Shown in pieces: positions 1 to 62,703 of a DNA stretch of 64,000 bases. A model generated the notes under the pieces. The model saw only the letters and a program-made list of their open reading frames with translations. It did not search any database and was not told where the DNA came from. The DNA is taken from assembly GCA_037134695.1 (NCBI GenBank), contig JBAXLU010000001.1, positions 11,551 through 75,550 of the forward strand, given 5' to 3'. Made by a program: the position numbers and the translations under genes. Positions within the stretch are counted from its first letter, which is position 1. Every line of letters starts with the position of its first letter. This stretch comes from Candidatus Nomurabacteria bacterium (GTDB lineage Bacteria; Patescibacteriota; Minisyncoccia; Phycocordibacterales; UBA5272).

Positions 1-184
1 TTTTTCCTGTGTCCCTTCGTAGCATAATCGCGAAGTGGGATCTGTAACAATTTTTTCTGTTTTATAATTCTCGTACTAATCTCAATTTTATTCTAATCGA
101 ACCAACCCAGATACATTTTACCAGCTTCGGGTTATAATTTCTCTAACTCCTAATTTATCCCGCCAAGGCGGTGACTCCTAACTC

Positions 185-1144
185 CTAAATTATTTCCCTA
201 ATCCCTTCTTCTAATGTAACAATTGGATTCCACCCAAGAGCATTTTTTATTTTTGTATTATCACCGACAAATCTTCTGGGTTCTATTCTTGGTGCAATAT
301 GAATTATTTCTGCATTTGCATTATTTTTTTCTCTTATAATATTTGCCACCAAATTAGCAATATCAATAACTTTGCTTTCAATACCAGAGCAAACATTAAA
401 TACTTCGCCTCGCACCTTTTCCTTATCAATATTTTCTAAGATTTTTGTATTCGCTTTTACAACATCATAAACATGTATGAAGTCTCTGGTCTGCTCACCA
501 TCACCACAAATTGGCATCGGGCTATTATTTTTTGCTTCTTTTATAAATCTTCCTATGGCTGGCGCATAACTGCCACTGTCATGTTGATCAGGACCCCAGA
601 CATTTGAATATCTCACACAAGTTACATTTATTTTATATAAATCATTATAAAGTTTACCAAGTTGTTCGTCTATAAATTTGCTTAATCCATAAGGGTTTTC
701 TGGGTGAGTCGCATCATTTTCATTTTTTAAGCCATCTATACTTCCATAAACTGCTCCTGAACTTGTTAAGATAACATTATTACAGCCATTATTTCTTGCA
801 GATTCTAAAACATGTAAAGTTCCTTTGATATTAGTATCAAAAGCTTTTAATGGGTTATTTATACTGTTTGGTGAACTTATAAAAGCTGCCAGATGAATTA
901 CTCCGTAAGCATTATTAAAAATAGGGGATATTTTTTCATAATCCAAAATATCTATTTTATGAATATTATTTTTAATAAAATTATCATCAAAATACTTTAA
1001 TAAAATATCGTTCGATATTTTCTCACCAGTAAATTCATCCATCAAAAAATCAATCACATGCACTTCATAATTTTTCTCTAAAAGAGATTTAGCTAAATGT
1101 CTCCCAATAAATCCTGCACCACCAGTAACTATGATTTTTTGCAT
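185..1144 (-). CDS. NAD-dependent epimerase/dehydratase (UDP-sugar 4-epimerase-like, SDR fold)
   Basis: 319-aa ORF; N-terminal Rossmann motif VTGGAGFIGRHL; lies in a glycosyl-transfer cluster. Confidence 0.75.
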   Translation of the reverse strand: MQKIIVTGGAGFIGRHLAKSLLEKNYEVHVIDFLMDEFTGEKISNDILLKYFDDNFIKNNIHKIDILDYEKISPIFNNAYGVIHLAAFISSPNSINNPLKAFDTNIKGTLHVLESARNNGCNNVILTSSGAVYGSIDGLKNENDATHPENPYGLSKFIDEQLGKLYNDLYKINVTCVRYSNVWGPDQHDSGSYAPAIGRFIKEAKNNSPMPICGDGEQTRDFIHVYDVVKANTKILENIDKEKVRGEVFNVCSGIESKVIDIANLVANIIREKNNANAEIIHIAPRIEPRRFVGDNTKIKNALGWNPIVTLEEGIREII

Positions 1145-4267: not shown

Positions 4268-4293
4268 CGCGGAAAAATTCAAAAAAATACTAA

Positions 4294-4413: not shown

Positions 4414-5766
4414 ATGAGAAATCGTTTCGCTATTTTTGTTTTTGCTATTTTATTTGCACTTGTACCTATACAAGGAAATATACATGTTTTTGCTCAAACA
4501 CGAGCAGAGCTTGAAAATGATTTGGCAAATTTGGAAGCTCAAATAAAAGCCTTAACAAACAGTATTACGGAAACAAAACAACAAGGAGTATCACTTAAAA
4601 ATGATATTTCTGTTTTAGCTAAAAAAATTGAACAAAGTAAATTAAAAATAAAAGCTCAAGATGCAGCCATTGCAAGACTTACTCAAAATATTTCAGAAAA
4701 AGATAGGACATTGAATTCTCTTAATGACAAAATGGATAGAGAGAAGGACTCTCTTGCCCAGATTATGAGGAAGACAAGATATTTAGAACAATATTCTTTG
4801 CTTGATTTTGGTCTTCAGTCAGATAGTTTGTCTACTTTCTTTTCTGATGCAGATTCCTTCTCCACTCTTAATCGTGCTTTAACTAAAAGTTTTGAAGATA
4901 TTCGTAATACAGAAGATGAGATAAACCAAGTTAAAATTCAGCTTGAAGATTCAAAAGATGAAGAAACTCAAAAGAAATTAGCCCAACAAGCTGTAAAAAA
5001 ACAAGTTGAATTAAATCAAAAAGAAAAAAATAGTTTACTTACTATTACAAAAAATCAAGAAGCGCAATATAAAAAAGTTTTAGCTGATCGTGAAAAAGAA
5101 GCAGCCACAATACGAGGAAGATTATTCGAACTTCGTGACGCTGGAAGTATTTCTTTTGGACAAGCTTATGATTTTGCTCTAGTTGCTAGTAAATCAACAG
5201 GCGTTCGCCCGGCACTTATCCTTGCAATTCTAATGCAAGAGTCTTCTTTGGGTATTAATGTTGGGGCATGCTATCTTCGTGATTATTCTACTGGTGACGG
5301 TGTTGGTATAAAAACTGGTGATATAAAAAGACGTGTAATGCATCCAACTCGTGATGTTCCAGTGTTTACGTCATTCCTTGGTAAACTTGGACGTGACCCA
5401 CAACAAACACCGGTCTCTTGCTGGATACCAATGTACAGTAAAGGAAGTCCAAGTGGATGGGGTGGAGCAATGGGTCCGTCACAGTTTATTCCGTCCACAT
5501 GGCAGCTTTTTGAAAATAGAATTGAGACTATAACAGGAGCCTCTGTTGCTGATCCTTGGAAACCATATCATGCAATTACCGCCACTTCTCTTTATTTGGC
5601 TGATTTAGGTGCAGTTACAGGTAATGAAGTGTCTGAAAGAAATGCTGCATGTAAATATTATTCTGGGAGGTCTTGTTCATCCTCATCTGCCGGTGCTGGT
5701 TATGGAAATTCCGTTATGAAAAAACTTTATAGTATGCAGGCAGATATCGACAAGCTACAAAGATAG
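4414..5766 (+). CDS. secreted coiled-coil protein with C-terminal lytic-transglycosylase-like (SLT) domain
   Basis: 450-aa ORF; signal peptide MRNRFAIFVFAILFALVPIQG; long heptad-like region; C-terminal ILMQESS...GAMGPSQFIPSTW resembles SLT catalytic and substrate motifs. Confidence 0.55.
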   Translation: MRNRFAIFVFAILFALVPIQGNIHVFAQTRAELENDLANLEAQIKALTNSITETKQQGVSLKNDISVLAKKIEQSKLKIKAQDAAIARLTQNISEKDRTLNSLNDKMDREKDSLAQIMRKTRYLEQYSLLDFGLQSDSLSTFFSDADSFSTLNRALTKSFEDIRNTEDEINQVKIQLEDSKDEETQKKLAQQAVKKQVELNQKEKNSLLTITKNQEAQYKKVLADREKEAATIRGRLFELRDAGSISFGQAYDFALVASKSTGVRPALILAILMQESSLGINVGACYLRDYSTGDGVGIKTGDIKRRVMHPTRDVPVFTSFLGKLGRDPQQTPVSCWIPMYSKGSPSGWGGAMGPSQFIPSTWQLFENRIETITGASVADPWKPYHAITATSLYLADLGAVTGNEVSERNAACKYYSGRSCSSSSAGAGYGNSVMKKLYSMQADIDKLQR

Positions 5767-5879
5767 TCTATAAAGTTGAAAGTCTATAAAGTGGTTGCGA
5801 AATTCCTTTTAACCTTAAGGACTTTATATACTTTTGACTGGTTGCAGGATGCAACTAAATATGTTATTATAGGCCGACT

Positions 5880-6086: not shown

Positions 6087-6257
6087 TCCATCTACTTTGT
6101 TGTGGAGCCTCTTTCGCTCGTCATCGTACTATTAAGTACGTCTCCTCGCTCACTTCTCCACGCCTCGTATCTGAACCATTTTTAGCAGCCATTATGGCTT
6201 GCTTTTTGGTATACTACAAAGCATCTAACTTTCAACTTTACGAACTTTATAAACTTT

Positions 6258-7276: not shown

Positions 7277-8026
7277 ATGTACTATATCATTCTTGTCGTC
7301 ATTGTTCTCCTCGGGCTTTCCCTCCGTGTTGTTAAAGAATATGATAGAGGGGTCATTTTCTTTTTAGGTAAATGTACTGGCGTGAGAGGTCCTGGACTTA
7401 TTATTCTTATTCCTATTTTTGAACAAATGACAAAGGTTGCACTTCGTACCATTACGATGAATATACCTTCTCAAAAAATTATTACACGCGATAATGTGTC
7501 TATAGATATTGCTGCAGTTGCTTATTATCATGTTGTTGATCCACAAAAGTCAGTTGTTGCAATTGAGAATGTGTATGATGCAGTAAATCAGATTAGTCAG
7601 ACAACAGTGAGAAATATTGTTGGACAATTTCAACTTGATCAACTTCTTTCACAAACAGTAGATATCAATCAACAAATTAAATCAGTCATCGATGCACACA
7701 CAGAACCATGGGGAGTAGAAGTGACGGCTGTTGAAATTAAAGACATTACATTACCTGATAATATGCAACGTGCGATGGCAAAGGAAGCAGAAGCAGAAAG
7801 AGAGAGACGAGCAAAGATAGTAGCAGCACAAGGGGAATTTGAGGCCGCGGTGAAGCTCGGAGAAGCGGCAGATATCATTTCTCTTCATCCTGTAGCACTT
7901 CAACTGCGCACACTACAAACTATGGCAGAAATTAGTGTAGAAAAGAATTCAACAATTATTTTCCCAGCACAGTTTATGACGACCGTTAATGAAGCAATTT
8001 CTATGATACGAGGAGATGTGAAGTAA
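7277..8026 (+). CDS. SPFH/band-7 (stomatin/prohibitin-like) membrane protein
   Basis: 249-aa ORF, N-terminal TM helix, SPFH core, C-terminal [22 protein letters not shown] coiled coil. Confidence 0.75.
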
Positions 8027-8033
8027 TAAAAAT

Positions 8034-8462
8034 ATGAATTATATTATAAGTATTTTACAATATTTTCGATTGATAATTATTGTATTATTGTTTTGCAGTC
8101 TTATAATCAGTTTTGTAACAAATATGTCTTTTCTCGTAAAGATAGGTTTATTGAGAAGTAAACTAAATGAATTATTTCCTGGAAAATTTGATTTTACTTA
8201 TTCTAATCTTTCATTTAGTGAAAGGTTCTTTAAGGAGATTAAGGATAATCCATCAAGTAAATTAAATAATAATTTTTTCTTTTGGAATAAAGTAGAAAGT
8301 TGGTATTTCCCTGGAGTTGATATGTCTAGTATTAATGATACTGAAGCACAAGAAAAATATATTAGTTTAAAAAATAGCTATAAACTTACAAAGTTCTTTC
8401 ATCTTTTATCAATAATTTTATTTATATTAAATTTTATCAGTATTTTATTTTTACTAAATTAG
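8034..8462 (+). CDS. hypothetical membrane protein
   Basis: 142-aa ORF with hydrophobic N- and C-termini; no recognisable motif. Confidence 0.3.
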   Translation: MNYIISILQYFRLIIIVLLFCSLIISFVTNMSFLVKIGLLRSKLNELFPGKFDFTYSNLSFSERFFKEIKDNPSSKLNNNFFFWNKVESWYFPGVDMSSINDTEAQEKYISLKNSYKLTKFFHLLSIILFILNFISILFLLN

Positions 8463-8660
8463 TTTTTTAAGTTTAAATACAACAGATTGTAATCACTTCC
8501 CAAATAAGTGAAAATGTGCTATATTAAACCCGATTCATCCAATCGGGCAAATCAGGATTTGGACACCTGAGCATAACTTTCGAGCATCACTGACGCGTAC
8601 AAAACCTTGTACTTATGAGAAAGAGGAATAGATTTATTTTGCGAATTAGTTATTTGTATT

Positions 8661-8696
8661 TACTAATAACTAATAACCAATAACTAAAAACTACCC
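8661..8696 (+). promoter_or_regulatory. conserved AACTAnTAACCAnTAACTA...AACTACCC leader motif upstream of rpsB
   Basis: TACTAATAACTAATAACCAATAACTAAAAACTACCC; near-identical motifs precede tsf, typA and the 22371 gene. Confidence 0.4.
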
Positions 8697-8742
8697 TAAT
8701 GTGGCACGAGTAAATGTTTTTTATTAGTTTACTTAATTAAAT

Positions 8743-9420
8743 ATGTCAAAAATAACAAAAGAAGCTTTAGCTTCTGCTGGTTTACAATACGGCTACTCAC
8801 GTACTCGTCGTCACCCATCAGTAAAGCCATTTATAGAAGGTAATCACAATGGTGTTGATTTTATTAACCTTGATTCAACAGCCCAGCAATTAAACGATGC
8901 TATTACTTTCCTTAAGTCTGTACAAGGCGCAGGTAAGACTATTCTTTTCGTTGGAGTAAAGCCAGAAATTCGCCAAATGATAAAAGAAGTTGCTCTATCA
9001 TTAAATGCTCCTTATGTAGCAGAAAGATTTATCGGTGGTACTCTTACTAATTTTCCACAAATCAAGAAGCGTATTGAAAAACTTCATGACCTATTGAAGA
9101 AAAAAGAAACAGGGGAGCTTGCTGTTTATACAAAGAAAGAACAGCTTTTGATTCAGCGTGATATCGATCGTTTGGACCGTGACTTCGGAGGTATTTCTTC
9201 ATTAACAAATATACCTGCAGCAATTGTAATGATTGACTCTCGCCATGAAGATATGTGTGTTAAGGAAGCTAAAATTCTCCACATTCCTGTGGTTGCGCTT
9301 TGTAATACTGACTGTACAATAGAAGGTATCGAATACCCAATACTCGGAAATGATGGATCAGTAAGTTCTGTTCGATTTGTTCTTGAATCAATCAAGAACG
9401 CTCTTCAAATAGAAGCGTAA
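8743..9420 (+). CDS. rpsB: 30S ribosomal protein S2
   Basis: 225-aa ORF, GLQYGYSRTRRHPSVKPFI...GVDFINLDST is canonical S2. Confidence 0.9.
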   Translation: MSKITKEALASAGLQYGYSRTRRHPSVKPFIEGNHNGVDFINLDSTAQQLNDAITFLKSVQGAGKTILFVGVKPEIRQMIKEVALSLNAPYVAERFIGGTLTNFPQIKKRIEKLHDLLKKKETGELAVYTKKEQLLIQRDIDRLDRDFGGISSLTNIPAAIVMIDSRHEDMCVKEAKILHIPVVALCNTDCTIEGIEYPILGNDGSVSSVRFVLESIKNALQIEA

Positions 9421-9445
9421 GCATCGCATTAGTATTGTATTTGCA

Positions 9446-9483
9446 TTTACTATCAACTATTAACCAGTAACTATCAACTACCC
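9446..9483 (+). promoter_or_regulatory. conserved leader motif upstream of tsf
   Basis: TTTACTATCAACTATTAACCAGTAACTATCAACTACCC ends 2 nt before the ATG; no GGAGG Shine-Dalgarno. Confidence 0.4.
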
Positions 9484-9485
9484 AT

Positions 9486-9953
9486 ATGGATACTATAAAA
9501 GAACTTCGTGAGGAAACAGGATTATCATTTGCACAAATTAAGAAAGCTCTTGATGAAGCAAATGGAGACAAAGAAAAGGCACGTGCTGTCCTTTCAGAAT
9601 ACTCTGCAGCTCAAGCAGAAAAGAAGGCTGACCGTGAAGTGGCAGCTGGCGTTGTCTCAGCTTATATTCATGGAAATGCTACAATTGGTGTTCTATTAGA
9701 GCTTGGTTGTGAAACTGACTTCGTTGCAAAGAATGAAGAGTTCGTAGCTCTTGCAAAAGATTTAGCTATGCATGTATGTGCTATGTCACCAACTTCAATT
9801 GATAATGAAGATGGTTTAGGAGAAGAAACAGCTTTACTTAAGCAAGCCTTCATTAAAGATCCTTCTATGACTGTAGAGCAAAAAATTCAAGCTGCCGTAC
9901 AAAAGTTTGGAGAGAACACAAAAGTGATTAAATTCACACGCTACGCCATCTAA
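9486..9953 (+). CDS. tsf: elongation factor Ts (short form)
   Basis: 155-aa ORF; N-terminal UBA-like TIKELREETGLSFAQIKKAL; gene order rpsB-tsf conserved. Confidence 0.8.
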   Translation: MDTIKELREETGLSFAQIKKALDEANGDKEKARAVLSEYSAAQAEKKADREVAAGVVSAYIHGNATIGVLLELGCETDFVAKNEEFVALAKDLAMHVCAMSPTSIDNEDGLGEETALLKQAFIKDPSMTVEQKIQAAVQKFGENTKVIKFTRYAI

Positions 9954-11503: not shown

Positions 11504-12766
11504 ATGATATATTCCATATTATATGGGCTCATGTATCCATTTCTATTTTTATCAATATATTTTCAAGTACTACTTTTAACTTCATTTTTTGAGAATAAAA
11601 AAAAGATTAAAAAGGAGGAAAAACATGAGATAAAAAATTATCCAACAGTAACTATTGTTGTTCCGTGTTGGAATGAAGAAAAAACACTTGCGTCTACTCT
11701 TGATTCACTGCTTGCACTTGATTATCCAAAAGATAAACTTTCAGTAATTGTTGTTGATGATGGAAGTAAAGATAGAACTCTTGCTATCGCTGAGATATAT
11801 GCATACAACAACTCAGAACAGATAAGAGTACTTTCAAAAGAAAATGGTGGTAAACATACCGCTGTTAATCTTGCTTTAGAAAATTCAAAATCAGATTTAT
11901 TTGGCTGTTTAGATGCAGACTCTTCAGTTGAAGTTAATACACTTAAAATAATGGTGTCATATTTTGATGCTGATAAAAGTGTTATGTCTGTAACTCCGTG
12001 TATACACATTCGTAACCCACGTACACTTATTCAACGATTACAAGCTACGGAATATTTAATAAATATATTTGTGCGTAAGGCATATGGACAGCTTGATTCT
12101 ATATTAGTGGCTCCAGGATCATTTTCTATATTCCGTAAAGAAGTATTTGAGATAGTTGGTAATTATAGCAAAGCTCATAATACAGAAGATTTCGAAATTA
12201 CTTTACGTATGCATAAAGCACATTTGAAGGTTATGAATTCACATAAAGCACTCGTGTATACAGTTGGTCCCGCAACAGCAAAAGGATTTTTTTATCAACA
12301 TTTACGTTGGGCTAGGGGATTTCTTGAAAACTCTATTAATTATCGCGAGTTATTTTTTAAAAAAGAATATGGTAATTTCGGTATGTTTACATTGCCTGTA
12401 GCTTTTATTTTTATATTTTATGGTTTGTATGCCACCATTTTTGCTGTTTATAGTATCTCGTCACAATTAATTATTTCTATTAACAGATGGGTTACGGTTG
12501 GTTTTCATCCACAAATGCCAATATTTGATCTTTTTTATTTTAATACCACAGTAATGTCGTTTATAGTAATGGTTATGTTTTCTATGCTTCTGTTAGTTCT
12601 TTATATCGGTAATACTCTTTCAGATGACAAACAACAGTTTTATATTAACTTTCCTATTTTTTTTGTTTTATACCCCATATTCGCTCCATTATTTTTTGGA
12701 CGTGCAGTTTTTGACACTTTCTTTAAAAGAAGAAATGAATGGGTGCTTCAGGATACGAAGAAGTAG
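11504..12766 (+). CDS. GT2-family processive membrane glycosyltransferase (cellulose/chitin/PNAG-synthase-like)
   Basis: 420-aa ORF; GT-A DxD (VVDDGSKDRT; LDADS), QxxRW motif (QHLRWARG), multiple TM helices. Confidence 0.8.
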   Translation: MIYSILYGLMYPFLFLSIYFQVLLLTSFFENKKKIKKEEKHEIKNYPTVTIVVPCWNEEKTLASTLDSLLALDYPKDKLSVIVVDDGSKDRTLAIAEIYAYNNSEQIRVLSKENGGKHTAVNLALENSKSDLFGCLDADSSVEVNTLKIMVSYFDADKSVMSVTPCIHIRNPRTLIQRLQATEYLINIFVRKAYGQLDSILVAPGSFSIFRKEVFEIVGNYSKAHNTEDFEITLRMHKAHLKVMNSHKALVYTVGPATAKGFFYQHLRWARGFLENSINYRELFFKKEYGNFGMFTLPVAFIFIFYGLYATIFAVYSISSQLIISINRWVTVGFHPQMPIFDLFYFNTTVMSFIVMVMFSMLLLVLYIGNTLSDDKQQFYINFPIFFVLYPIFAPLFFGRAVFDTFFKRRNEWVLQDTKK

Positions 12767-12810
12767 TCTATAAAGTTCATAAAGTTGAAAGTTTATAAAG
12801 TGGGTCCGAT

Positions 12811-12853
12811 GCGAGCGACCCCCAAGTGGTCGCTCGCGTCGTATTTTGGTTTA
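12811..12853 (+). terminator. intrinsic terminator after the GT2 gene, embedded in an AT-motif palindromic element
   Basis: GCGAGCGACC-CCCAAGT-GGTCGCTCGC then GTCGTATTTTGGTTT; flanked by inverted TTTATAAAGTTGAAAGT-type motifs (12767-12895). Confidence 0.6.
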
Positions 12854-12890
12854 CTTTCAACTTTATGAACTTTAAAAACTTTCAACTAAG

Positions 12891-13754
12891 ATGGCCGTTC
12901 ATAAATTTCATTTTTATGATAAAATGAAATTTATGAACGGCCATCTCCACCCCATTACTCTCGCAGTTGCACGTATTTCCGACATCTTTTCCAAGATGGG
13001 TTTTGATACAGTTGATGGTCCAGAGCTAGAAGATGAATGGCACAATTTTGATGCACTAAACGTTCCAGCTGATCACCCAGCGAGAGATATGCAGGATACC
13101 TTCTTCATCAGAATGGGTACTGATGAAGCGCAGACTAACGCAGAACGGACGCAGAAGGTCGCAGAAGGAATACAAAGGACAGGCATTAATAAATTCGGTG
13201 AACCCATGGGCTATGTTCTTCGTACACATACTAGTAACATGCAGATCCGCACTATGGAAAAATATACAGCGGAAGGTAAAGAATTGCCTATTGCTATTTG
13301 TTGCCCGGGAAAAGTTTTTCGCAATGAAGCAACAGACGCAACCCACGAAGCACAATTTCATCAAATAGAAATGTTATATGTTGCAAAAGATGCATCACTA
13401 GCTATGATGATAGGTGTAATTGAAAAGTTTTTCTCAGAATTTTTTGGAACAGATTTAGTGATTAGACTTCGTTCAAGTTATTTTCCATTCGTTGAGCCGG
13501 GCAATGAAGTGGATATGCAATGTTTTAAGTGTAAAGGTAGTGGTTGTAATATTTGTAAACAAACTGGTTGGATAGAAATAGGTGGTGCTGGAATGGTGCA
13601 TCCAAAAGTATTAGAAGCAGGAGGAATTAATCCAGCTGATTATCGTGGTTTTGCTTTTGGTTGTGGTATAGACAGAATGGTAATGCTTAAATATGGAATT
13701 GAAGATGTTCGTCTTTTGTATAATGGAGATTTAAGAGTGGTCAATCAATTTTAA
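12891..13754 (+). CDS. pheS: phenylalanine--tRNA ligase alpha subunit
   Basis: 287-aa ORF; class II motifs (LRTHTS, FRNEATDATHEAQFHQIEM, GAGMVHPKVL, GFAFGCGIDRM); alternative start at 12927; carries an in-frame short-repeat insertion at 13127-13185. Confidence 0.85.
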   Translation: MAVHKFHFYDKMKFMNGHLHPITLAVARISDIFSKMGFDTVDGPELEDEWHNFDALNVPADHPARDMQDTFFIRMGTDEAQTNAERTQKVAEGIQRTGINKFGEPMGYVLRTHTSNMQIRTMEKYTAEGKELPIAICCPGKVFRNEATDATHEAQFHQIEMLYVAKDASLAMMIGVIEKFFSEFFGTDLVIRLRSSYFPFVEPGNEVDMQCFKCKGSGCNICKQTGWIEIGGAGMVHPKVLEAGGINPADYRGFAFGCGIDRMVMLKYGIEDVRLLYNGDLRVVNQF

Positions 13755-19580: not shown

Positions 19581-21752
<2,172 letters not shown>

Positions 21753-21756
21753 AAAT

Positions 21757-21790
21757 AAAAATCACCGCATATGCGGTGATTTTTGTTTTT
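21757..21790. terminator. bidirectional terminator between gyrB and a hemerythrin gene
   Basis: perfect palindrome AAAATCACCGCAT|ATGCGGTGATTTT flanked by A/T runs; a near-copy sits at 22885-22921. Confidence 0.6.
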
Positions 21791-22214
21791 ACTTCAAGCC
21801 GTGCTCATTAAAAAATAGAGAGTACTTTTTATCCATTGAAAGAATATGTTCAAATAGCCAGTTTCCAGCAAATAAACCACTTTCTTTTAGTGTGTCTTTT
21901 AAATCATAATTTCTATTACTTACCTTAGAAATTAATTCAGCAGATTTTACTCTAAAGTGATCATGTGATTTTATATGATCTTCCATATGTGGAACATTGT
22001 ATTTTTCAAAATACTCTTCTTCTGTACCTAAATGATACTTCGCATAATCACCCAATCTATTGATGGCGAGTACCGCTTCTGCTTGTGTAAATTTTATTTT
22101 TCCTTCAGATAATTCTAATAAATTGTTACATAAATTAAAAAACTCTTTATGTTGATTGTCTATTATTTCAATTCCAACAGAGTATTCTTCTGTCCAAATA
22201 AGTTCTTCGTACAT
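21789..22214 (-). CDS. bacteriohemerythrin-like protein, paralog 1
   Basis: 141-aa ORF; WTEEYSVGIEIIDNQHKEFF plus downstream H..E, HF, H..D metal ligands; ~85% identical to 22921-23346. Confidence 0.7.
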   Translation of the reverse strand: MYEELIWTEEYSVGIEIIDNQHKEFFNLCNNLLELSEGKIKFTQAEAVLAINRLGDYAKYHLGTEEEYFEKYNVPHMEDHIKSHDHFRVKSAELISKVSNRNYDLKDTLKESGLFAGNWLFEHILSMDKKYSLFFNEHGLK

Positions 22215-22316: not shown

Positions 22317-22370
22317 TTTGTATTAAACTATAATCTATTAACCAGTAACTACTAACTGGTAACTATTCTC
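22317..22370 (+). promoter_or_regulatory. conserved leader motif upstream of the SLOG-like gene
   Basis: TTTGTATTAAACTATAATCTATTAACCAGTAACTACTAACTGGTAACTATTCTC directly before the ATG; same motif as the rpsB, tsf and typA leaders. Confidence 0.4.
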
Positions 22371-22880: not shown

Positions 22881-22884
22881 AAAA

Positions 22885-25469: not shown

Positions 25470-25748
25470 ATGTCTATTTATAGTATCAGAAAAATGAAAG
25501 AGTCGAAAGTTTTAATTAGTTAAAAGTCCATAAAGTAGAAAGTTTATAAAGTTGATACGGGTCCGTATTTCCTTTTAGCTTTAAAGACTTTATAGACTTT
25601 TTACTGGATGTGTACTCACGTCCGTCCTTGACTTAACCCCCAGGTTTTGTACTATAAAGTAACTTGCAGGGCTTGGTATAATAAGAACACGAAATTAAAA
25701 ATAAGCAAGTATGCTTTCGGATTTATTATTGCAAGCGCCTAATACATT

Positions 25749-31604: not shown

Positions 31605-31831
31605 AACTTTTAGCATAAAAATTGCAGCTTTTGACCTGTATTTTGTATCGCTAAAGGCTACAAGCTACAGGCTGCTAACTACCCCAGCACTTCAACCCAC
31701 CTATAGATTTTGTAAAGATTTTTCTAGAATCGGGCATATTTTTCAAGACCTTTTATGTCCCCAGTTTTGTGGTTGCAGATAAGGTGAAGTGGGGCAATAA
31801 TAAGGTACCGGGGGACACATATTTATTTTGG

Positions 31832-40779: not shown

Positions 40780-40828
40780 CTGTATTTAAACTATTAACCA
40801 GTAGCTAGTAACTACCAACCATTCAACC
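40780..40828 (+). promoter_or_regulatory. conserved leader motif upstream of typA
   Basis: CTGTATTTAAACTATTAACCAGTAGCTAGTAACTACCAACCATTCAACC immediately before the ATG. Confidence 0.4.
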
Positions 40829-50280: not shown

Positions 50281-50521
50281 AAATGCAGAACTAACGCGGA
50301 ATAATACAAAAAATAAAGGGTGACTCCTACGAAGCCACCCTGTATTTTCCATAAACTAGTAACCAATAACTATTTAATTAAGGCGATTAGTGAAAAACCA
50401 ACCATACCAACAATAGCTAGTATTGAAATTATGGCCCAGATCTTATGAAGAAGTTTTCTATTTTTTGATGTGAAAAGCATATATGTTTTTTTTGATATGT
50501 TAGAATAATACTAACAATAAT

Positions 50522-56861: not shown

Positions 56862-56995
56862 GTTAGATGTGTATGAATATAGTATACAACTAGTAATGTT
56901 AATAAATATGAAAAGTTATACACAGTACGACGAGCGAAGGCGAGGAAGTCACTGAGCATAGCAATGTGAAGTGTCGGGCAGATGTTTAGAAATAA

Positions 56996-57133
56996 TCGAA
57001 AGTTCATCAAGTTTGAAGTCGAAAGTTTATAAAGTTAGTAAAGTTGAAAGTCATACAAAATACATTGGCGACACCTTCGGTGTCGCCAATGTATTTACTT
57101 TATGAACTTTAAAACTTTATAAACTTTCAACTA
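56996..57133. repeat. AT-motif palindromic element (family B) around a bidirectional terminator
   Basis: GAAAGTTTATAAAGTTAGTAAAGTTGAAAGT ... ATTGGCGACACC-TTCG-GTGTCGCCAAT ... ACTTTATGAACTTTAAAACTTTATAAACTTTCAAC. Confidence 0.55.
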
Positions 57134-57136
57134 GAT

Positions 57137-59272
57137 CTACCATTTAGTTACAATCAATAAATCATCCTCCTCCGTCTTTACATACTTCCATAATTCTTCA
57201 GAAATGAAAGGCATGAATGGGTGAATAACTATAAGTTGTTCACGAAGCAATTTTAATAATAAAGCTTGAGCACTGGCCTTATCTTTATCCTCTAATATTC
57301 TAGTCTTTCTTGTTTCTATAATGTCATCACAAAAGACTTTCCAGAAATAGTCATATATTTTCTCTGATGCAATATGCAATTTAAAGTCCTCAATATCTTT
57401 TGTTATGGCATCTTTTTTCTCACACCATGCATCATACACTGCTTGGTCCTCATCATTTAATTCCGCACCGCCTTCATAGTCAGTAGTCCTTTCAAGTACG
57501 AATCGTGATGCATTCCAAATTTTATTTGCAAACTTTTTATAAGCCTCAACTTTTTTTGGATCAAGATTCATATCAACTCCAGGAGCATTGTTTACAATTA
57601 ATCCCATGCGAAGAGCGTCCGTCCCATATTGATTTGATATATCAAGAGGGGAAATAACATTCCCTTTACTCTTACTCATTTTCTTTCCTTTTGCATCACG
57701 CACTAGCCCGTGAAGATAAACATGACTAAATGGAGTTTTGCCAGTTACATATATTCCAAGCATCATCATACGCACAACCCAGAATAGTAGTATGTCGAAA
57801 CCCGTCTCCATAACTTGCGTCGGATAATATTTTTCAAAATCCCCAGGCTTGGTATTTTGTAATGTCGCAAATGGCCACTGACCAGATGAGAACCATGTAT
57901 CGAATGAATCAGGGTCTTGCATTAGCTCGCCATTACATTTTTCACACACAGTTAATTTATTATCTAGGTCTACATATCCAGCATCACAGTTGTGACACAG
58001 TTTTGCAGGAATTGGTATCCCCCAGACAATTTGTCTTGAAATATTCCAGTCTTGAATATTTTCCATCCAATGATAAAAGATTTTTTCATGTTGCTCAGTT
58101 AAGATTTTTGTCTCACCATTTTTCACGGCTTCGATTGCTTTTTCAGCCAACGGTTTCATTTTTATAAACCACTGTGGTTTAACTTGTGGTTCAAGTTCGC
58201 GTTCACATTTATAACAAACAGAAACATCGTGAGAGTATTCATTATCTATTTTTACAAGTAATCCTTTTGCATCTAATTTCTCTACAATTTTCTCGCGCGC
58301 ATCTTTTATACTCATTCCAGAGAATTCTCCTGCGATAGGTAGCAACTTTCCTCTCTCGTCGATTATTTGTTCAAAATCTAAATCATATTTTTTTGCGATA
58401 TCGAAGTCAACTCCCGAATGCCACGGAGTAATAGTCATCGCACCGCTACCAAATTCTGGATCACTTGCCTCATCTTTGATAATTGTTGCTTCTATTGGTC
58501 CATTGATCCACTCAACCGTTAATTTGTCACCGTGTTTGTATTCCTTATAACGCTCATCATCCGGATGCATTACAACATACTTGTCTCCGAACTTTGTTTC
58601 AGGACGAACAGTTCCAATAGTAAAAGGTCCATATTTAAAATAATAGAATGGGTCTTTTCTTGTTACGTGTTCAGTTTCCAAATTAGAAAGTGAAGTTTGA
58701 TGTTTTGTACACCAATTAACTATTCTTTTTCCACGATAAAGAAGTTTGTCATCGTCTAGTTTCTTAAAAGTATTGTAAACAGTTTTTATTATTCCATCGT
58801 CTAGTGTAAAGACTTCACGTGACCAATCACAACTAGCACCTAGCTGGCGGATTTGTCCTTCCATAAATGATTTATTAAAAAGAGTAAAGTCCATAATCTC
58901 TTTATATAAATCTTCACGCTTCATATCAAATCGTGAGCGTCCTTCTTTCTCTAATTTTTTTTCATAAACAGTCTGTGTCTCAAATCCAGCATGGTCAGCA
59001 CCAGGAAGCCATAGTGTGCGCTTGCCATTCATACGATTGAAACGAATCAAAATATCTTCTACTGTTACGAAAAGTGCATGCCCTGCGTGTAGTGAGCCGT
59101 TAGCATTAGGAGGCGGCATTATTATGGTGTAAGTTTCTTTTCTCTCACCTTTTAAATTGTCAGGATTAAAGTATCCTCCTTTTTCCCACATTTCATATAA
59201 AGAAGGCTCAACCATTTTTGCATCAAATGGTTTCATTAATTGTTCTAAGTTTTTTTCGGGTGATTGCTTCAT
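57137..59272 (-). CDS. valS: valine--tRNA ligase (short form without C-terminal coiled coil)
   Basis: 711-aa ORF; HIGH-region PPPNANGSLHAGHAL, KMSKSKGNVISPLD and GTDALR tRNA-contact motif favour ValRS over IleRS or LeuRS. Confidence 0.7.
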   Translation of the reverse strand: MKQSPEKNLEQLMKPFDAKMVEPSLYEMWEKGGYFNPDNLKGERKETYTIIMPPPNANGSLHAGHALFVTVEDILIRFNRMNGKRTLWLPGADHAGFETQTVYEKKLEKEGRSRFDMKREDLYKEIMDFTLFNKSFMEGQIRQLGASCDWSREVFTLDDGIIKTVYNTFKKLDDDKLLYRGKRIVNWCTKHQTSLSNLETEHVTRKDPFYYFKYGPFTIGTVRPETKFGDKYVVMHPDDERYKEYKHGDKLTVEWINGPIEATIIKDEASDPEFGSGAMTITPWHSGVDFDIAKKYDLDFEQIIDERGKLLPIAGEFSGMSIKDAREKIVEKLDAKGLLVKIDNEYSHDVSVCYKCERELEPQVKPQWFIKMKPLAEKAIEAVKNGETKILTEQHEKIFYHWMENIQDWNISRQIVWGIPIPAKLCHNCDAGYVDLDNKLTVCEKCNGELMQDPDSFDTWFSSGQWPFATLQNTKPGDFEKYYPTQVMETGFDILLFWVVRMMMLGIYVTGKTPFSHVYLHGLVRDAKGKKMSKSKGNVISPLDISNQYGTDALRMGLIVNNAPGVDMNLDPKKVEAYKKFANKIWNASRFVLERTTDYEGGAELNDEDQAVYDAWCEKKDAITKDIEDFKLHIASEKIYDYFWKVFCDDIIETRKTRILEDKDKASAQALLLKLLREQLIVIHPFMPFISEELWKYVKTEEDDLLIVTKW

Positions 59273-59330: not shown

Positions 59331-59828
59331 ATGTTCAAAAAACAGTCTAAAGTTCTAAAACAAGGCTCAAAGACCTTGGCACAAAAAATTAGTAAAATTT
59401 CTCCAAATAAAAAACAGCTTCCAGATCATCATTTCAAGATTGTTAAGGTTAAGCGTGGATTAGATGGAATGGGATTATTTGCTGGAGAAGATATTAAAAA
59501 AGGGGAGATGATAATTGAATATATTGGTAATATCATAACCACAAAAGAGGCTAATGATATGACAGAGAATCAGTATCTTTTTGAAATAAATACGAGAAAG
59601 ACAATTGATGGATCACCAAAATGGAATATCGCACGTTATTGTAACCATGCATGTGGAGATGATGCAAATGCCGAGAGTGATATAAAGAAGGGAAGAGTTT
59701 TTGTAATCGCTACTAAAGAAATAAAAAAAGGAGAAGAAATTGTTTATGATTATGGAGAAGAATTTGTTAAAGAACACATCGCACCGAGTGGATGTAGATG
59801 TAGAGCAATTAAACATCATTATGTTTAA
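59331..59828 (+). CDS. SET-domain protein (putative protein-lysine methyltransferase)
   Basis: likely start MFKKQSK at 59331 (ORF-track start 59157 overlaps valS); GMGLFAGEDIKKGEMIIEYIG, ARYCNHACGDDANAE (NHxC), EEIVYDYG, Cys-rich post-SET GCRCRAIKHH. Confidence 0.6.
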   Translation: MFKKQSKVLKQGSKTLAQKISKISPNKKQLPDHHFKIVKVKRGLDGMGLFAGEDIKKGEMIIEYIGNIITTKEANDMTENQYLFEINTRKTIDGSPKWNIARYCNHACGDDANAESDIKKGRVFVIATKEIKKGEEIVYDYGEEFVKEHIAPSGCRCRAIKHHYV

Positions 59829-59898
59829 TTGCAGACAGTAGATTTTAGAAATCACCGCTGAGTGGGATAAATTAGATTTTAGATTAGATACAAATACA

Positions 59899-59936
59899 AC
59901 AAGAGTGGCACCTACGGTGCCACTCTTGTTGTATTT
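59899..59936 (+). terminator. intrinsic terminator after the SET gene
   Basis: ACAAGAGTGGCACC-TAC-GGTGCCACTCTTGT then TGTATTT. Confidence 0.7.
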
Positions 59937-60185
59937 AAAGTCTTTTTTAGTGTTTAATCTAACATCTAAAATCTAATGTCTAAAGTCTGTTCTTGCCAAT
60001 GCTTCGCATTTGCATTTAGTAGAAAAATAAAAATTTTAAAATAAAAAAGTTATCCACAAGTAAAAAATATTTTTTGCTTGTATGTATATGTATGAGTGTC
60101 ATACTTAGTGTATCGAGAGTAATGATCGCGGTCGTGATCAAAAAAATTACAAGTACTCTCTGATTTGTATAATAAAAATATTTTT

Positions 60186-62575: not shown

Positions 62576-62703
62576 ACATTAGATTTCAGATTACACAACT
62601 ACAACACTGGATTCCAACTTTCGTTGGAATGACACGTATCTTCTGGAAACTTAATTTTTTTACTCCTAACCTCTAACTCCTAACCCCTAACTAATTTAAA
62701 AAC

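What the first reader, a model, noticed from the sequence alone, without database searches (positions are those of the whole stretch)
8661..9483. A conserved ~45-nt leader lacking Shine-Dalgarno precedes rpsB, tsf, typA and the SLOG gene
(T)GTATTT..ACTAT-AACTATTAACCAGTAACTA-NN-AACTACC occurs at 8661-8696, 9446-9483, 22317-22370 and 40780-40828. The ATG follows 2-45 nt later. None of the four has a GGAGG-type ribosome-binding site. The small Q-rich ORF at 23498, by contrast, has a perfect TAAGGAG. Degenerate CTCCTAACTCCTAA variants occur at 150-200 and 62648-62700. This may be a shared promoter-plus-leader cassette for highly expressed genes, or a translational-control or autoregulatory site for S2 or Ts. 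Its presence in front of the SLOG gene suggests the cassette can move.
Basis: seen in the sequence. Interest (0 to 1): 0.5.

Follow-up and report, generated by a model that had tools for sequence, protein, structure and literature searches.

The report
Heptamer-repeat leaders before start codons
The shared "leader" is real: it is a run of 7-base tandem repeats (TAACTAn) of a kind already reported, but never explained, in front of start codons in other bacteria, and here it sits in a candidate-phyla bacterium whose genes almost all lack ribosome-binding sites.

Summary
All four sites consist of TGTATT(T) followed by 5-6 tandem heptads, nnAAC(T/C)A. A fifth copy lies at 50341-50378.

The motif is not a promoter and not an S2/Ts operator. 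It belongs to a lineage-wide class of intergenic heptamer arrays with a CTA core every 7 nt:
- The arrays are strongly enriched in this Paceibacteria-like CPR clade and almost absent at other periods.
- The G-poor strand abuts start codons. The complementary TAG-type arm follows stop codons.
- Many arrays come as inverted pairs around an intrinsic terminator, and TGTATTT is the terminator's U-tract.
- The window's four sites are solo, G-poor arrays with no start codon and no predicted structure.

Lack of SD is genome-wide here: 5% of genes have an SD-like motif, and many look leaderless. In rpsB the array is an insertion inside a separate, conserved, covarying leader RNA, which is the better S2-operator candidate.

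The closest precedent is the TAACTGA repeats of Beggiatoaceae, Cyanobacteria and Bacteroidetes (MacGregor 2015), together with heptameric SSRs of Xanthomonas and Nostoc. Function is unproven in all of these.

My best guess is that the arrays act as SD-independent, unstructured ribosome landing pads that arise by slippage and fold-back next to terminators. I class this as a new member of a known, poorly understood kind.

The parts
8655..8696 (+). TGTATTT plus 5 heptads (TTACTAA TAACTAA TAACCAA TAACTAA AAACTAC). It is inserted in an internal loop of the conserved rpsB leader RNA, 46 nt before the ATG at 8743.
   Evidence: Shown to be an insertion relative to 12 relatives that lack it. The same insertion point carries other repeat flavours in L001, L003, L004, L018, L021 and L024.
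9436..9483 (+). TGTATTT GCATTT plus 5 heptads. It fills most of the 65-nt rpsB-tsf spacer and ends 2 nt before the tsf ATG. Solo array with no 5' partner arm.
   Evidence: Predicted unstructured: MFE -5.9 kcal/mol, z +0.8, empty centroid. 14 of 37 clade members have a strong period-7 tsf leader, against 0 at control lags.
22319..22370 (+). TGTATT plus 6 heptads, abutting the ATG at 22371 (169-aa ORF, weak DprA/SLOG-like similarity). Solo array.
   Evidence: (z -1.1). Stop codons in all six frames and no start codon.
40781..40828 (+). TGTATTT plus 5-6 heptads, abutting the typA ATG at 40829. It is the last 48 nt of a roughly 120-nt 5' UTR that begins with a hairpin.
   Evidence: (MFE -2.4, z +1.0). 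Relatives L187 (ACTA-type) and L184 (CCCTAAA-type) also carry arrays here; L185 and L189 have none.
50341..50378 (+). Fifth copy: TGTATTTTCCATAAACTAGTAACCAATAACTA, just after a hairpin. On the minus strand it is a TAG-type arm directly after the stop of a 36-aa ORF (50370-50480).
6226..6257 (+). ACTTT-type array (AACTTTATG x3.6) that makes up essentially the whole leader of the release-factor gene (ATG 6258), downstream of a TGGTATACT -10 box at 6206-6214.
62660..62695 (+). ACTCCTA-type array x4.4, ending 8 nt before the CsoR-like ORF at 62704.
31637..31677 (+). TGTATTTTGTAT plus a GCTA-type array (GCTAAAG GCTACAA GCTACAG GCTGCTA) at the start of the long untranslated region before nrdD.
12764..12890 (+). 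Paired module. The 5' arm (..AAAGT repeats) starts at the stop codon TAG. Then comes a GC hairpin plus GTCGTATTTTGG (terminator-like), then the 3' arm (ACTTT repeats) before pheS.
   Evidence: I3; MFE -59.4 kcal/mol, z -11.2. Orthologous modules in L001, L003, L005, L018 and L033 have entirely different but still complementary repeat units.
56995..57142 (-). Paired module, upstream of the hsp20 promoter: 5' arm, then AAATACATTGGCGACACC..GGTGTCGCCAATGTATTT terminator, then 3' arm.
   Evidence: MFE -59.8 kcal/mol, z -11.1.
25490..25615 (-). Paired ACTTT-type module upstream of the thrS promoter.
   Evidence: I22; z -3.3.
5764..5845 (+). Paired ACTTT-type module between the upstream gene's stop codon and the L31 (rpmE) promoter.
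   Evidence: z -2.4.
59826..59990 (+). Paired TCTAA-type module: TTAGATT arm from the stop codon, then AAATACAACAAGAGTGGCACC..GGTGCCACTCTTGTTGTATTT terminator, then AATCTAA x4.7 arm.
   Evidence: (I17).
142..200 (-). TTAGGAG-type repeats on both sides of a GC hairpin, at the 3' end of the epimerase gene (185-1144, minus strand).
8497..8722 (+). Context rather than part of the repeat class: the promoter (8497-8525) and the conserved structured rpsB leader RNA that hosts the first array.
   Evidence: No Rfam match.

Best explanation
**Identity.** The four sites, plus a fifth at 50341-50378, are tandem heptanucleotide-repeat arrays. Each has 5-6 units of TAACTAn/TAACCAn. They belong to a class that pervades the intergenic DNA of this CPR (Paceibacteria/Nomurabacteria-like) clade. 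The class has a CTA core every 7 nt with a variable 4-nt spacer.

**Proposed function (inferred).** The arrays are transcribed as the last 30-45 nt before the start codon. There they give a stretch that is G-poor (about 6% G), free of AUG/GUG/UUG, rich in stop codons and without predicted structure. In an organism that does not use Shine-Dalgarno pairing and translates many mRNAs leaderless, I infer that such a stretch works as an SD-independent landing or standby site for the ribosome, at internal cistrons and on leadered mRNAs.

**Proposed origin (inferred).** The arrays arise and turn over by replication slippage. Fold-back (quasi-palindrome) templating next to intrinsic terminators also contributes.
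- The full form is [TAG-type arm]-AAATACA-[GC hairpin]-TGTATTT-[CTA-type arm].
- The window's cassette, TGTATTT plus array, is the 3' half of such a module standing alone.

**Shown:** periodicity, enrichment, polarity, low predicted structure, insertion polymorphism, and the absence of SD across the clade.

**Inferred:** transcription of the arrays, any effect on translation, and the mutational mechanism.
For: **Periodicity**
- Period-7 arrays: 36 at lag 7 against 0 at lags 4-6, 8 and 10.
- 172 in-phase triplet arrays at period 7, against 5-43 at other periods. The outgroup has 1.
- 90 of 103 arrays are intergenic although 84% of the DNA is coding.

**Sequence core and length**
- CTA occurs in 59 of 90 consensus units, against 21 expected.
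- Copy number plateaus at 4-5 units and then drops: 3:32, 4:20, 5:19, 6:1.

**Polarity**
- Within 25 nt upstream of starts: C-type 28, G-type 5.
- Within 25 nt downstream of stops: G-type 16, C-type 7.

**Properties of array leaders compared with other leaders**
- G content: 6% against 15%.
- Start codons per 45 nt: 0.7 against 1.9.
- Mean MFE: -4.0 against -8.0 kcal/mol.
- The window's tsf and typA leaders fold no better than shuffles.

**Genome context**
- The clade lacks SD: 5% of genes have an SD-like motif against 9.8% background. G is 9-11% at positions -12 to -1. 28% of genes have a -10 box 5-16 nt before the ATG.
- For the release-factor gene, the array is the whole predicted 5' UTR after a TGnTATACT box.

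**Persistence and turnover**
- An array persists before tsf in many relatives, mostly with the ACTA flavour.
- Arrays precede typA in 3 of 5 lineages.
- Orthologous pheS modules keep complementary arms while the repeat unit changes completely.
- TGTATTT is the U-tract side of plain terminators in the window.

**Precedent**
- TAACTGA repeats end about 1 nt before SD-less start codons, including those of ribosomal-protein genes (PMC4679880).
- Xanthomonas and Nostoc heptamers show the same strand polarity and include inverted pairs (PMC4692102).
Against: - There are no expression, 5'-end or ribosome data, so function is inferred from position and composition only.
- Arrays are dispensable at the same loci:
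  - 12 relatives have none in the rpsB leader.
  - Many have none before tsf; those short spacers are simply AT-rich.
  - L185 and L189 have none before typA.
- Adjacency to the ATG may partly reflect compact genomes in which a module fills the whole spacer.
- For paired modules, the G-first/C-second order is an intrinsic property of the palindrome and reads the same on both strands. It does not by itself prove selection at the mRNA level.
- The array at 8661-8696 is 46 nt from the rpsB ATG and lies inside a structured RNA, so it cannot be acting as a ribosome-binding region there.
- A conserved CTA core and a 7-nt register are not required of a merely unstructured spacer.
Confidence: 0.5

Rival explanations
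1. Neutral or near-neutral mutational by-product. Heptamers are the unit most prone to polymerase slippage. Fold-back templating at terminator hairpins keeps the two arms complementary. The orientation bias only reflects purifying selection: G-containing, start-codon-containing arms are harmful just upstream of a start, while G-poor arms are tolerated. On this view the arrays have no positive function.
For: - Presence/absence polymorphism at every locus examined.
- Wholesale turnover of the repeat unit between relatives.
- An array sits inside a coding gene at 35371-35407.
- TAACTA-type arrays occur in contigs of 14-68% GC, and only 10 of 45 with a nearby ORF lie within 25 nt of its start.
- Over-representation of heptameric SSRs across bacteria has been attributed to slippage (PMC4692102, citing Mrazek 2007).
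Against: - The CTA core is 2.8-fold over the within-unit shuffle expectation.
- There is a sharp cap at about 5 units instead of geometric decay.
- The ACTA flavour persists before tsf across relatives with 79-96% S2 identity.
- The same 14-mer is shared by three loci in one genome.
- Arrays make up, by my rough sum of the array and module spans, on the order of a tenth of the intergenic DNA in a streamlined genome.
Confidence: 0.22
2. Binding sites with a 7-nt register for a trans-acting single-strand nucleic-acid-binding protein. Candidates are a cold-shock protein (footprint of about 7 nt), ribosomal protein S1, or a HutP/TRAP-like oligomer that reads UAG/CUA triplets spaced by 4 nt. Such sites would define a post-transcriptional regulon.
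For: - A conserved triplet (CTA, or TAG on the other arm) with a variable 4-nt spacer is the signature of triplet-reading oligomeric RNA-binding proteins.
- Arrays have 4-5 units, with a cap.
- The same flavour occurs at several loci in one genome and across genomes at different loci.
- MacGregor 2015 proposed S1, Csp and CsrA as candidates for TAACTGA repeats (PMC4679880).
- The Nostoc recF/recO study inferred an unidentified partner for its heptamer repeats (bioRxiv 10.1101/2022.06.06.494920).
Against: - No candidate protein was identified. No HutP- or TRAP-type domain appeared among the window proteins scanned.
- Many flavours lack CTA (31 of 90 units).
- 8-9-nt ACTTT-type arrays occupy the same positions.
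- The downstream genes have no common function beyond a sampling bias towards translation genes.
Confidence: 0.15
3. Structural arms of terminator-centred hairpins. On this view the arrays matter as half of a long stem that does one of three things: it is cut by RNase III to separate cistrons; it brings the upstream stop codon next to the downstream start for termination-reinitiation; or it places stop codons in all frames on both strands ahead of a bidirectional terminator.
For: - Six paired modules in the window have strong predicted stems. The pheS module is -59.4 kcal/mol and the hsp20 module -59.8, both with z about -11.
- The 5' arm begins at the stop codon and the 3' arm ends near the start.
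- Arms co-vary across orthologous modules.
- Stops in all three frames occur on 64% of G-rich strands (28% in shuffles). Stops in all six frames occur in 33% of arrays (7% in shuffles).
Against: - The finding's own four sites have no detectable 5' partner and are predicted unstructured.
- About half of the start-adjacent arrays in relatives are also solo.
- Arm complementarity can be kept by fold-back templating without selection.
- The thrS and hsp20 modules lie upstream of promoters rather than between a stop and a start.
Confidence: 0.08
4. One reading: a mobile promoter-plus-leader cassette for highly expressed genes, or an autoregulatory operator for S2 or EF-Ts.
For: - The cassette is shared by rpsB, tsf and typA.
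- A weak 9/12 promoter-like match overlaps the typA copy.
- Arrays are insertion polymorphisms.
Against: - No consistent -35/-10 lies in the cassette, and real promoters lie upstream.
- The repeat sequence is not conserved at rpsB or tsf across relatives.
- A separate covarying RNA is the conserved element at rpsB.
- Arrays also precede non-translation genes.
- I saw no obvious target-site duplication at the rpsB-leader insertion, and the cassette copies share no homologous upstream flank.
Confidence: 0.05

Closest known systems
TAACTGA intergenic direct repeats of marine Beggiatoaceae, also found in Cyanobacteria and some Bacteroidetes (MacGregor 2015, PMC4679880)
   Same: - Tandem heptamers of 2-6 copies in 'forward' orientation, ending within a few nt of start codons.
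- The downstream genes mostly lack an SD.
- Some downstream genes encode ribosomal proteins.
- The forward strand is full of stop codons.
- A few copies lie inside ORFs.
- The unit differs from this window's TAACTAn by one base, and TAACTGG occurs at 22354-22360.
   Different: - Here the host is a CPR bacterium in which SD is absent genome-wide.
- The unit is not fixed: the core is CTA with a variable spacer, and ACTTT-type 8-9-mers occupy the same positions.
- Many arrays are paired with an inverted arm around a terminator; only one inverted repeat was reported in BOGUAY.
- In both cases function is unproven.
Heptameric intergenic SSRs of Xanthomonas (GGGAATC) and Nostoc (GGGGAYT), and the STRR heptanucleotides of Calothrix (Rehm et al. 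2015, PMC4692102, citing Mazel 1990 and Mrazek 2007)
   Same: - Period 7 and a strong intergenic bias.
- The same polarity: the G-rich strand is downstream of ORFs on the coding strand, and upstream of ORFs on the non-coding strand.
- Convergent inverted pairs able to form stem-loops.
- The same loci are occupied in related genomes, with extensive length and sequence variation.
   Different: - Those units are G-rich and form G-quadruplexes. Here the units are AT-rich with a single C or G, so G4 or i-motif structures are not plausible.
- Those genomes use SD.
Contiguous heptamer repeats upstream of recF and recO in Nostoc PCC 7120 (bioRxiv 10.1101/2022.06.06.494920)
   Same: Three to four contiguous heptamers close to or overlapping start codons, suggested to affect translation, with an unidentified binding partner.
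   Different: Different units (TTCAAAA and others). Reporter deletions exist there; there are no experiments here.
Unstructured, G-poor translational enhancers: TMV omega leader, T7 gene 10 epsilon (UUAACUUUA), CA-repeat enhancers (from my own knowledge, not checked against a paper here)
   Same: They work alike in principle. G-poor, repeat-containing leaders lacking secondary structure promote initiation without, or in addition to, SD pairing. The window's ACTTT-type units (CAACTTTA, AAACTTTA) contain the AACUUUA core of epsilon.
   Different: Those are single viral leaders shown to work by experiment. This is a genome-wide repeat class with a 7-nt register and no data.
HutP and TRAP binding sites (UAG or GAG triplets at fixed spacing) (from my own knowledge)
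   Same: The 5' arms read UAG-N4-UAG-N4-UAG, the spacing recognised by HutP, and they sit just upstream of a terminator hairpin.
   Different: No HutP or TRAP homologue was found in the window. The arrays next to start codons carry CUA, not UAG. Many arrays have other cores.
Hairpin-forming intergenic repeat elements (Correia/nemis, ERIC, REP/BIME, RUP) (from my own knowledge)
   Same: Insertion polymorphisms in intergenic and leader regions. They are co-transcribed, fold into long hairpins, and some are RNase III substrates.
   Different: Those are copies of a defined consensus element with terminal inverted repeats and target duplications. Here the arms are internally tandem-repetitive, differ in sequence between loci, and I saw no target duplication at the one filled-versus-empty site I compared.

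Membership tests
Heptamer direct repeats upstream of start codons (TAACTGA type, MacGregor 2015) | Tandem 7-nt unit, at least 2-6 contiguous copies | tested here: met
   TRF reports period 7 with 4.6-5.7 copies at three sites. Lag-7 autocorrelation confirms it.
Heptamer direct repeats upstream of start codons (TAACTGA type, MacGregor 2015) | Unit sequence TAACTGA | tested here: inconclusive
   The units are TAACTAA, TAACCAA, TAACTAT and TAACCAG, each 1-2 changes away from TAACTGA. TAACTGG occurs once, at 22354-22360. Clade-wide, only the CTA core is shared.
Heptamer direct repeats upstream of start codons (TAACTGA type, MacGregor 2015) | Forward orientation, ending within a few nt of a start codon | tested here: met
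   The arrays end 0-2 nt before the ATG at tsf, ORF 22371 and typA. The rpsB copy is 46 nt away. In the clade, C-type outnumbers G-type 28 to 5 within 25 nt of starts.
Heptamer direct repeats upstream of start codons (TAACTGA type, MacGregor 2015) | No Shine-Dalgarno between repeat and start | tested here: met
   This is also true of nearly all other genes here.
Heptameric intergenic SSR / STRR class (Mazel 1990; Mrazek 2007; Rehm 2015) | Period-7 repeats over-represented relative to other periods and confined to non-coding DNA | tested here: met
   90 of 103 arrays are intergenic against 16% non-coding DNA.
Heptameric intergenic SSR / STRR class (Mazel 1990; Mrazek 2007; Rehm 2015) | G-rich strand downstream of ORFs on the coding strand, and upstream of ORFs on the non-coding strand | tested here: met
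Sigma-70-type promoter | -35 and -10 hexamers at 16-18 nt spacing, present at all copies | tested here: not met
   On the + strand there is none at tsf or ORF 22371, and only a 9/12 match at typA. Counts are not above shuffles.
Ribosomal-protein autoregulatory leader (S2 operator) | Sequence or structure conserved across relatives, with covariation | tested here: not met
   The array sequence is not conserved, and it is absent from 12 relatives. The neighbouring element at 8531-8722 does meet this feature.
Rfam families (any) | Covariance-model match | tested here: not met
   No match at gathering thresholds in the window. Only chance-level hits at E <= 10 in 8440-9500.
Intrinsic terminator | GC-rich stem-loop followed by a U-tract | tested here: not met
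   The four sites keep the TGTATTT tract but have no convincing stem before it. The paired modules at pheS, hsp20 and 59826-59990 do have one.
MITE / REP-like mobile hairpin element | Defined consensus with terminal inverted repeats and target-site duplication, present in many near-identical copies | tested here: not met
   The upstream flanks of the five copies do not align. I saw no obvious duplication at the rpsB-leader insertion site when filled and empty forms were compared. The repeat units differ between loci.
HutP/TRAP-type triplet-repeat RNA-binding site | Cognate oligomeric RNA-binding protein encoded in the genome | not testable with these tools
   Only 64 kb of the genome is available. 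None of the roughly 45 window proteins scanned against Pfam hit such a family.
SD-independent translational enhancer (omega / epsilon-like) | Raises translation of the downstream ORF | not testable with these tools
   Only proxies are available: low G, no start codons, low predicted structure.

The most novel reading that the evidence does not exclude
In this CPR clade a 7-nt-register signal has taken over the role of the Shine-Dalgarno sequence.

CUA-heptad arrays of 4-5 units would be read by a ribosome-associated single-strand-binding protein, such as S1 or a Csp, or by the ribosome itself.

Together with UAG-heptad arms, they would form terminator-centred hairpins. These hairpins would place the upstream stop codon beside the downstream start codon, so that terminating ribosomes reinitiate across long spacers.

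The recurrence of TAACTA/TAACTGA-type arrays before SD-less genes in Beggiatoaceae, Cyanobacteria, Bacteroidetes and CPR would then reflect one widespread, undescribed initiation mechanism.
Probability: 0.12. Interest if true: 0.8.

Novelty: new member of a known kind. Interest (0 to 1): 0.45.

Why it matters
How bacteria that lack Shine-Dalgarno pairing choose start codons on leadered and polycistronic mRNAs is still open. Heptamer arrays abutting SD-less start codons have now been seen in four distant phyla without any experimental explanation.

This clade offers a clean comparative system:
- dozens of genomes with orthologous loci that do or do not carry arrays;
- a CTA core;
- a cap at 4-5 units;
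- a clear link to terminator hairpins.

If the arrays promote or regulate initiation, that would define a new class of translation signal. If they are slippage debris, they show how mutational processes shape the intergenic DNA of streamlined genomes.

Separately, the analysis uncovers a conserved, covarying rpsB leader RNA that is not in Rfam.

Tried and rejected
- **Rfam.** Gathering thresholds on the window and E <= 10 on 8440-9500 gave nothing relevant.
- **Exact-protein look-up of S2.** Not on record.
- **16S rRNA.** I looked for it in the fetched loci, to read the anti-SD sequence, and found none.
- **Promoter idea.** I tried TTGTAT as a -35 box and TGTATTT as an extended -10. The spacing is inconsistent between copies, and the scan tool finds no shared promoter. 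I also looked for a -10 box 6-7 nt upstream of GTATTT, which would make it a transcription start. This fails where TGTATTT follows the rpsB stop codon by 3-6 nt (L005, L013, L014).
- **Pairing with rRNA.** I considered the 3' tail, the h44/h45 linker and the h17 'epsilon' site from memory. None gives a conserved complement, and the lineage's 16S was not available.
- **5' partner arms for the four sites.** None found. The RNAduplex control was inflated because other upstream regions themselves contain TAG-type arms, so z-scores there are conservative.
- **'Hypervariable relative to coding'.** Dropped. The window and its closest relative, L001, are only about 85-87% identical in coding DNA.
- **All-six-frame stop 'insulator'.** Enriched (33% against 4-7%) but far from universal, so I kept it only as a sub-hypothesis.
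- **Literature.**
  - Searches for SD usage in CPR returned nothing specific.
  - A search for the epsilon sequence returned only unrelated sequence listings.
Full report

Yes. The four sites read as follows:
- rpsB, 8655-8696: TGTATTT-ACTAATAACTAATAACCAATAACTAAAAACTACC.
- tsf, 9436-9483: TGTATTTGCATTT-ACTATCAACTATTAACCAGTAACTATCAACTACC.
- ORF 22371, 22319-22370: TGTATT-AAACTATAATCTATTAACCAGTAACTACTAACTGGTAACTA.
- typA, 40781-40828: TGTATTT-AAACTATTAACCAGTAGCTAGTAACTACCAACCATTCAACC.

The 14-mer TTAACCAGTARCTA is exact at three of them. A search allowing two mismatches adds the rpsB site and a fifth site at 50359-50372: 5 matches against 1.5 expected.

An alignment of the five shows that similarity starts at TGTATT(T) and covers the repeats. 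The sequence upstream of TGTATTT is unrelated.

The cassette is internally periodic. It is a run of 5-6 tandem heptads, nnAAC(T/C)A, and Tandem Repeats Finder reports period 7 at three sites.

The ATGs are at 8743, 9486, 22371 and 40829. Three arrays therefore run up to the start codon, and the rpsB copy stops 46 nt short.

**2. The organism and its translation signals**

A scan with the S2 protein found 43 related loci, all MAGs labelled Paceibacterota, Nomurabacteria, Parcubacteria and similar. This places the organism in the Candidate Phyla Radiation.

I called 594 genes across the window and the closer relatives.
- Only 5% have an SD-like tetramer at -20 to -4, below the 9.8% background.
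- G falls to 9-11% at -12 to -1.
- 28% carry a -10-like box 5-16 nt before the ATG, against 4% background. This suggests leaderless or near-leaderless mRNAs.

'No GGAGG' is therefore true of the four genes but does not set them apart.

**3. The motif is one flavour of a lineage-wide repeat class**

The window holds other short-period, G-poor tandem arrays in the same kind of place:
- AACTTT-type 8-9-mers before the release-factor gene (6226-6257) and before pheS.
- ACTCCTA x4.4 before a CsoR-like ORF (62662-62692).
- AATCTAA x4.7 at 59956-59988.
- GCTA-type at 31646-31677.

Statistics over the 725 kb of window plus relatives:
- In-phase triplet arrays of at least 4 copies number 172 at period 7, against 5-43 at any other period from 4 to 12. 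The 305 kb of Erysipelotrichaceae and other outgroup loci have one.
- A strict autocorrelation test gives 36 arrays at lag 7 and none at lags 4, 5, 6, 8 or 10.
- At a relaxed threshold, 90 of 103 arrays are intergenic although 84% of the DNA is coding.
- The spacer varies between arrays, but CTA is present in 59 of 90 consensus units against 21 expected.
- Copy number plateaus at 4-5 and then collapses: 3:32, 4:20, 5:19, 6:1.

**4. Anatomy: paired modules and solo arrays**

*Paired modules.* In the window, the ACTTT-type and TCTAA-type arrays come as inverted pairs. A purine-containing arm starts at the stop codon of the upstream gene. It is followed by AAATACA, a GC-rich stem-loop and TGTATTT, which together look like a bidirectional intrinsic terminator. 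The complementary G-poor arm comes last.
- Examples: 12764-12890 (pheS), 56995-57142 minus strand (hsp20), 25490-25615 minus strand (thrS), 5764-5845 (L31) and 59826-59990.
- The pheS and hsp20 modules fold at -59.4 and -59.8 kcal/mol, with z about -11.
- TGTATTT is the U-tract side of the window's plain terminators as well, which appear as paired AAATACA/TGTATTT. It is mostly intergenic.

*Solo arrays.* The finding's own cassette, TGTATTT plus an ACTA-type array, is the 3' half of such a module standing alone.
- No 5' partner is detectable.
- The tsf and typA leaders fold no better than shuffled sequence: z +0.8 and +1.0, with empty centroids.

*Polarity across the clade.*
- Within 25 nt upstream of starts, the sense strand is C-type in 28 arrays and G-type in 5.
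- Within 25 nt downstream of stops, it is G-type in 16 and C-type in 7.
- For paired modules this order is the same on either strand, so it is a property of the palindrome. For solo arrays it is a genuine bias relative to the gene.

**5. Evolution**

*rpsB.* The array is not the conserved element.
- A highly conserved RNA with its own promoter precedes rpsB in 36 relatives. The promoter is TTCCCA-17-TATATT with TG, at 8497-8525.
- Two invariant blocks, GGACACCTGAGC and GTGGCACGA, lie 66-71 nt apart in the basic form, and the second block lies 38-43 nt before the ATG.
- A long-range helix, UCGGGC/GGCACGA, covaries (GGG:CAC, AAA:UUU, GGA:UUC). A hairpin also covaries.
- Rfam has no match.
- Heptad modules are insertions at two places. 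One is inside the RNA, just before UGUGGCACGAG, in the window and in L001, L003, L004, L018, L021 and L024. The other is between GUGGCACGAG and the ATG, in about 20 loci. Twelve loci have neither.
- At the shared internal site the flavour differs between genomes: ACTA-type in the window, GCTA-type in L001 and L018.

*tsf.* 14 of 37 clade members have a strong period-7 leader, against none at control lags. More have weaker ACTA-rich leaders. The rest have short AT-rich spacers.

*typA.* The window and L187 have ACTA-type arrays, L184 has a CCCTAAA-type array, and L185 and L189 have none. All five sit behind a comparable promoter and 5' hairpin.

*pheS.* Six lineages keep a module whose two arms remain complementary while the unit changes completely: AAAGTTCAT, AGTTTCC, TAGTAAG, TAGGGnn, TTAGAnn.

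This pattern fits slippage plus arm-to-arm (fold-back) templating. Selection on pairing fits it equally well.

**6. What is known**

Three sources describe the same phenomenon elsewhere.
- **MacGregor 2015 (PMC4679880).**
[quoted passage not shown] They also occur in Cyanobacteria and a few Bacteroidetes.
  - Most are in forward orientation, and the largest class ends 1 nt before a start codon.
  - About 90% have no SD, and some precede ribosomal-protein genes.
  - S1, Csp and CsrA were proposed as readers. No function was shown.
- **Rehm et al. 2015 (PMC4692102).**
  - Heptameric SSRs are over-represented in bacteria and strongly so in intergenic DNA of Xanthomonas and Nostoc.
  - They occur as convergent inverted pairs and occupy the same loci in related genomes, with extensive sequence and length variation.
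  - The G-rich strand lies downstream of ORFs on the coding strand, or upstream of ORFs on the non-coding strand. This is the polarity seen here.
  - The paper relays the idea that 7 nt matches the DNA segment held by the polymerase and so favours slippage.
- **A Nostoc preprint (10.1101/2022.06.06.494920).** It reports heptamer repeats near start codons and suggests effects on translation.

Several have an inverted TAGTTA arm just upstream, and 10 of 45 with a nearby ORF lie within 25 nt of its start.

**7. Mechanism**

Compared with other leaders of the clade:

| Property | Array leaders | Other leaders |
|---|---|---|
| G content | 6% | 15% |
| Start codons per 45 nt | 0.7 | 1.9 |
| Mean MFE of -45 to +20 (kcal/mol) | -4.0 | -8.0 |
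| Stop codons in all three sense frames | 56% | 26% |

The seven window arrays checked, including the four sites and the fifth copy, contain no ATG, GTG or TTG.

For the release-factor gene, the array is the whole predicted 5' UTR behind a TGGTATACT box.

I therefore favour, at about 0.5, the view that the G-poor arm serves as an unstructured, start-codon-free, SD-independent landing pad on leadered and internal cistrons, and that the arrays arise next to terminators by slippage and fold-back. These steps are inferred. Nothing here shows transcription of the arrays or any effect on translation.

Points against:
- Arrays are dispensable at every locus examined.
- The rpsB copy is too far from the ATG and sits inside a structured RNA.
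- The CTA core and the 7-nt register are not explained by 'unstructured' alone.

These points keep three rivals alive:
- a neutral slippage by-product filtered by purifying selection (0.22);
- a protein that reads a 7-nt register (0.15);
- a role only as hairpin arms, for processing, reinitiation or frame-independent stops ahead of terminators (0.08).

All-frame stops are enriched: 64% of G-rich strands against 28% in shuffles, and all six frames in 33% of arrays against 7%. They are not universal.

**8.

- The sequence observation is correct.
- The 'leader without SD' reading is right but not specific to these genes.
- The promoter reading is not supported.
- The S2/Ts operator reading is not supported for the repeat. 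It is better assigned to the conserved RNA at 8531-8722.
- 'Can move' is supported only in the sense of insertion polymorphism.

The finding is a new member, in a new phylum, of a known but unexplained class. I rate its interest as moderate.

Noticed in passing
window 8497-8722: A conserved structured RNA with its own extended -10 promoter lies upstream of rpsB. It is present in 36 relatives, has invariant blocks GGACACCUGAGC and GUGGCACGA, and has a covarying long-range helix (UCGGGC/GGCACGA) and a covarying hairpin. There is no Rfam match. It is a candidate S2 autoregulatory leader or riboswitch-like element specific to this CPR clade.
   Followed up: partly
window-wide, and L001-L043: The lineage is essentially free of SD: 5% of 594 genes have an SD-like motif, below background. 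About 28% of genes have a TGnTAnnnT-type -10 box 5-16 nt before the ATG, which suggests widespread leaderless mRNAs.
   Followed up: partly
window 12889-12946: A perfect 26-bp hairpin (-39.3 kcal/mol, z -14). Its 3' arm is the first 8 codons of pheS counted from the conserved start (ATG 12924, MKFMNGH...), so the start codon is buried in the stem. It is absent from L003. It could be a translational lock or a recent fold-back (quasi-palindrome) mutation.
   Followed up: partly
window 4235-4274, 13130-13175, 13856-13905, 21426-21470: In-frame acidic mini-insertions with shared DNA similarity (ACGCAGAAnGAyGCGGAAGGAATACAAA, encoding ..[12 protein letters not shown]..) occur in four unrelated essential genes: L25, pheS, pheT and gyrB. 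The pheS segment at 13102-13213 has no counterpart in L001 or L003. This is reminiscent of Rickettsia palindromic elements, which insert in frame.
   Followed up: partly
window 35371-35407: A GCTA-type heptad array (AGCTACA AGCTACA GGCTAAT GGCTACC TGCTG) lies inside the class-V aminotransferase (IscS/NifS-like) ORF. It closely resembles the array inserted in the rpsB leader of L001 and L018, and may be an in-frame insertion of about 21 nt.
   Followed up: no
window 23479-23620: A 40-aa glutamine-rich ORF (ATG 23498) has a textbook TAAGGAG 7 nt upstream, followed by a terminator-like hairpin. This is the only strong SD seen in the window, which is odd in an SD-less genome.
   Followed up: no
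window 21750-23346: ORF 22371 (weak DprA/SLOG-like similarity) is flanked by two near-identical units on the opposite strand. Each unit consists of a terminator and a hemerythrin gene with the same promoter. This suggests a duplication or an insertion.
   Followed up: no
window 50966-51334: Partial direct and inverted copies of the 3' end of tRNA-Gly (51312-51383), plus a 32-nt direct repeat (50966 and 51156). These may be scars of an integrative element.
   Followed up: no
window 45292-45691 (minus strand): The RNase P RNA scores just above threshold (104 bits against 100). It overlaps the called start of the MurJ ORF (45595), so the true MurJ start is probably further downstream.
   Followed up: no
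window 31680-32003: About 330 nt of untranslated sequence lies between a heptad array and nrdD, with no Rfam match. It may be an unrecognised regulatory leader.
   Followed up: no
L064-L143 (metagenome contigs): TAACTAnTAACYAnTAACTA arrays occur in more than 120 contigs of 14-68% GC. Arrays reach up to 9 units, and some alternate TAACTAT/TAACCAT exactly as in the window. Several have an inverted TAGTTA arm upstream. The same flavour therefore recurs across very different organisms.
   Followed up: partly
window 7277-8462: Two genes (SPFH/Band-7 and a hypothetical) lie immediately upstream of the rpsB promoter and have no counterpart at the syntenic position in L001.
   Followed up: no
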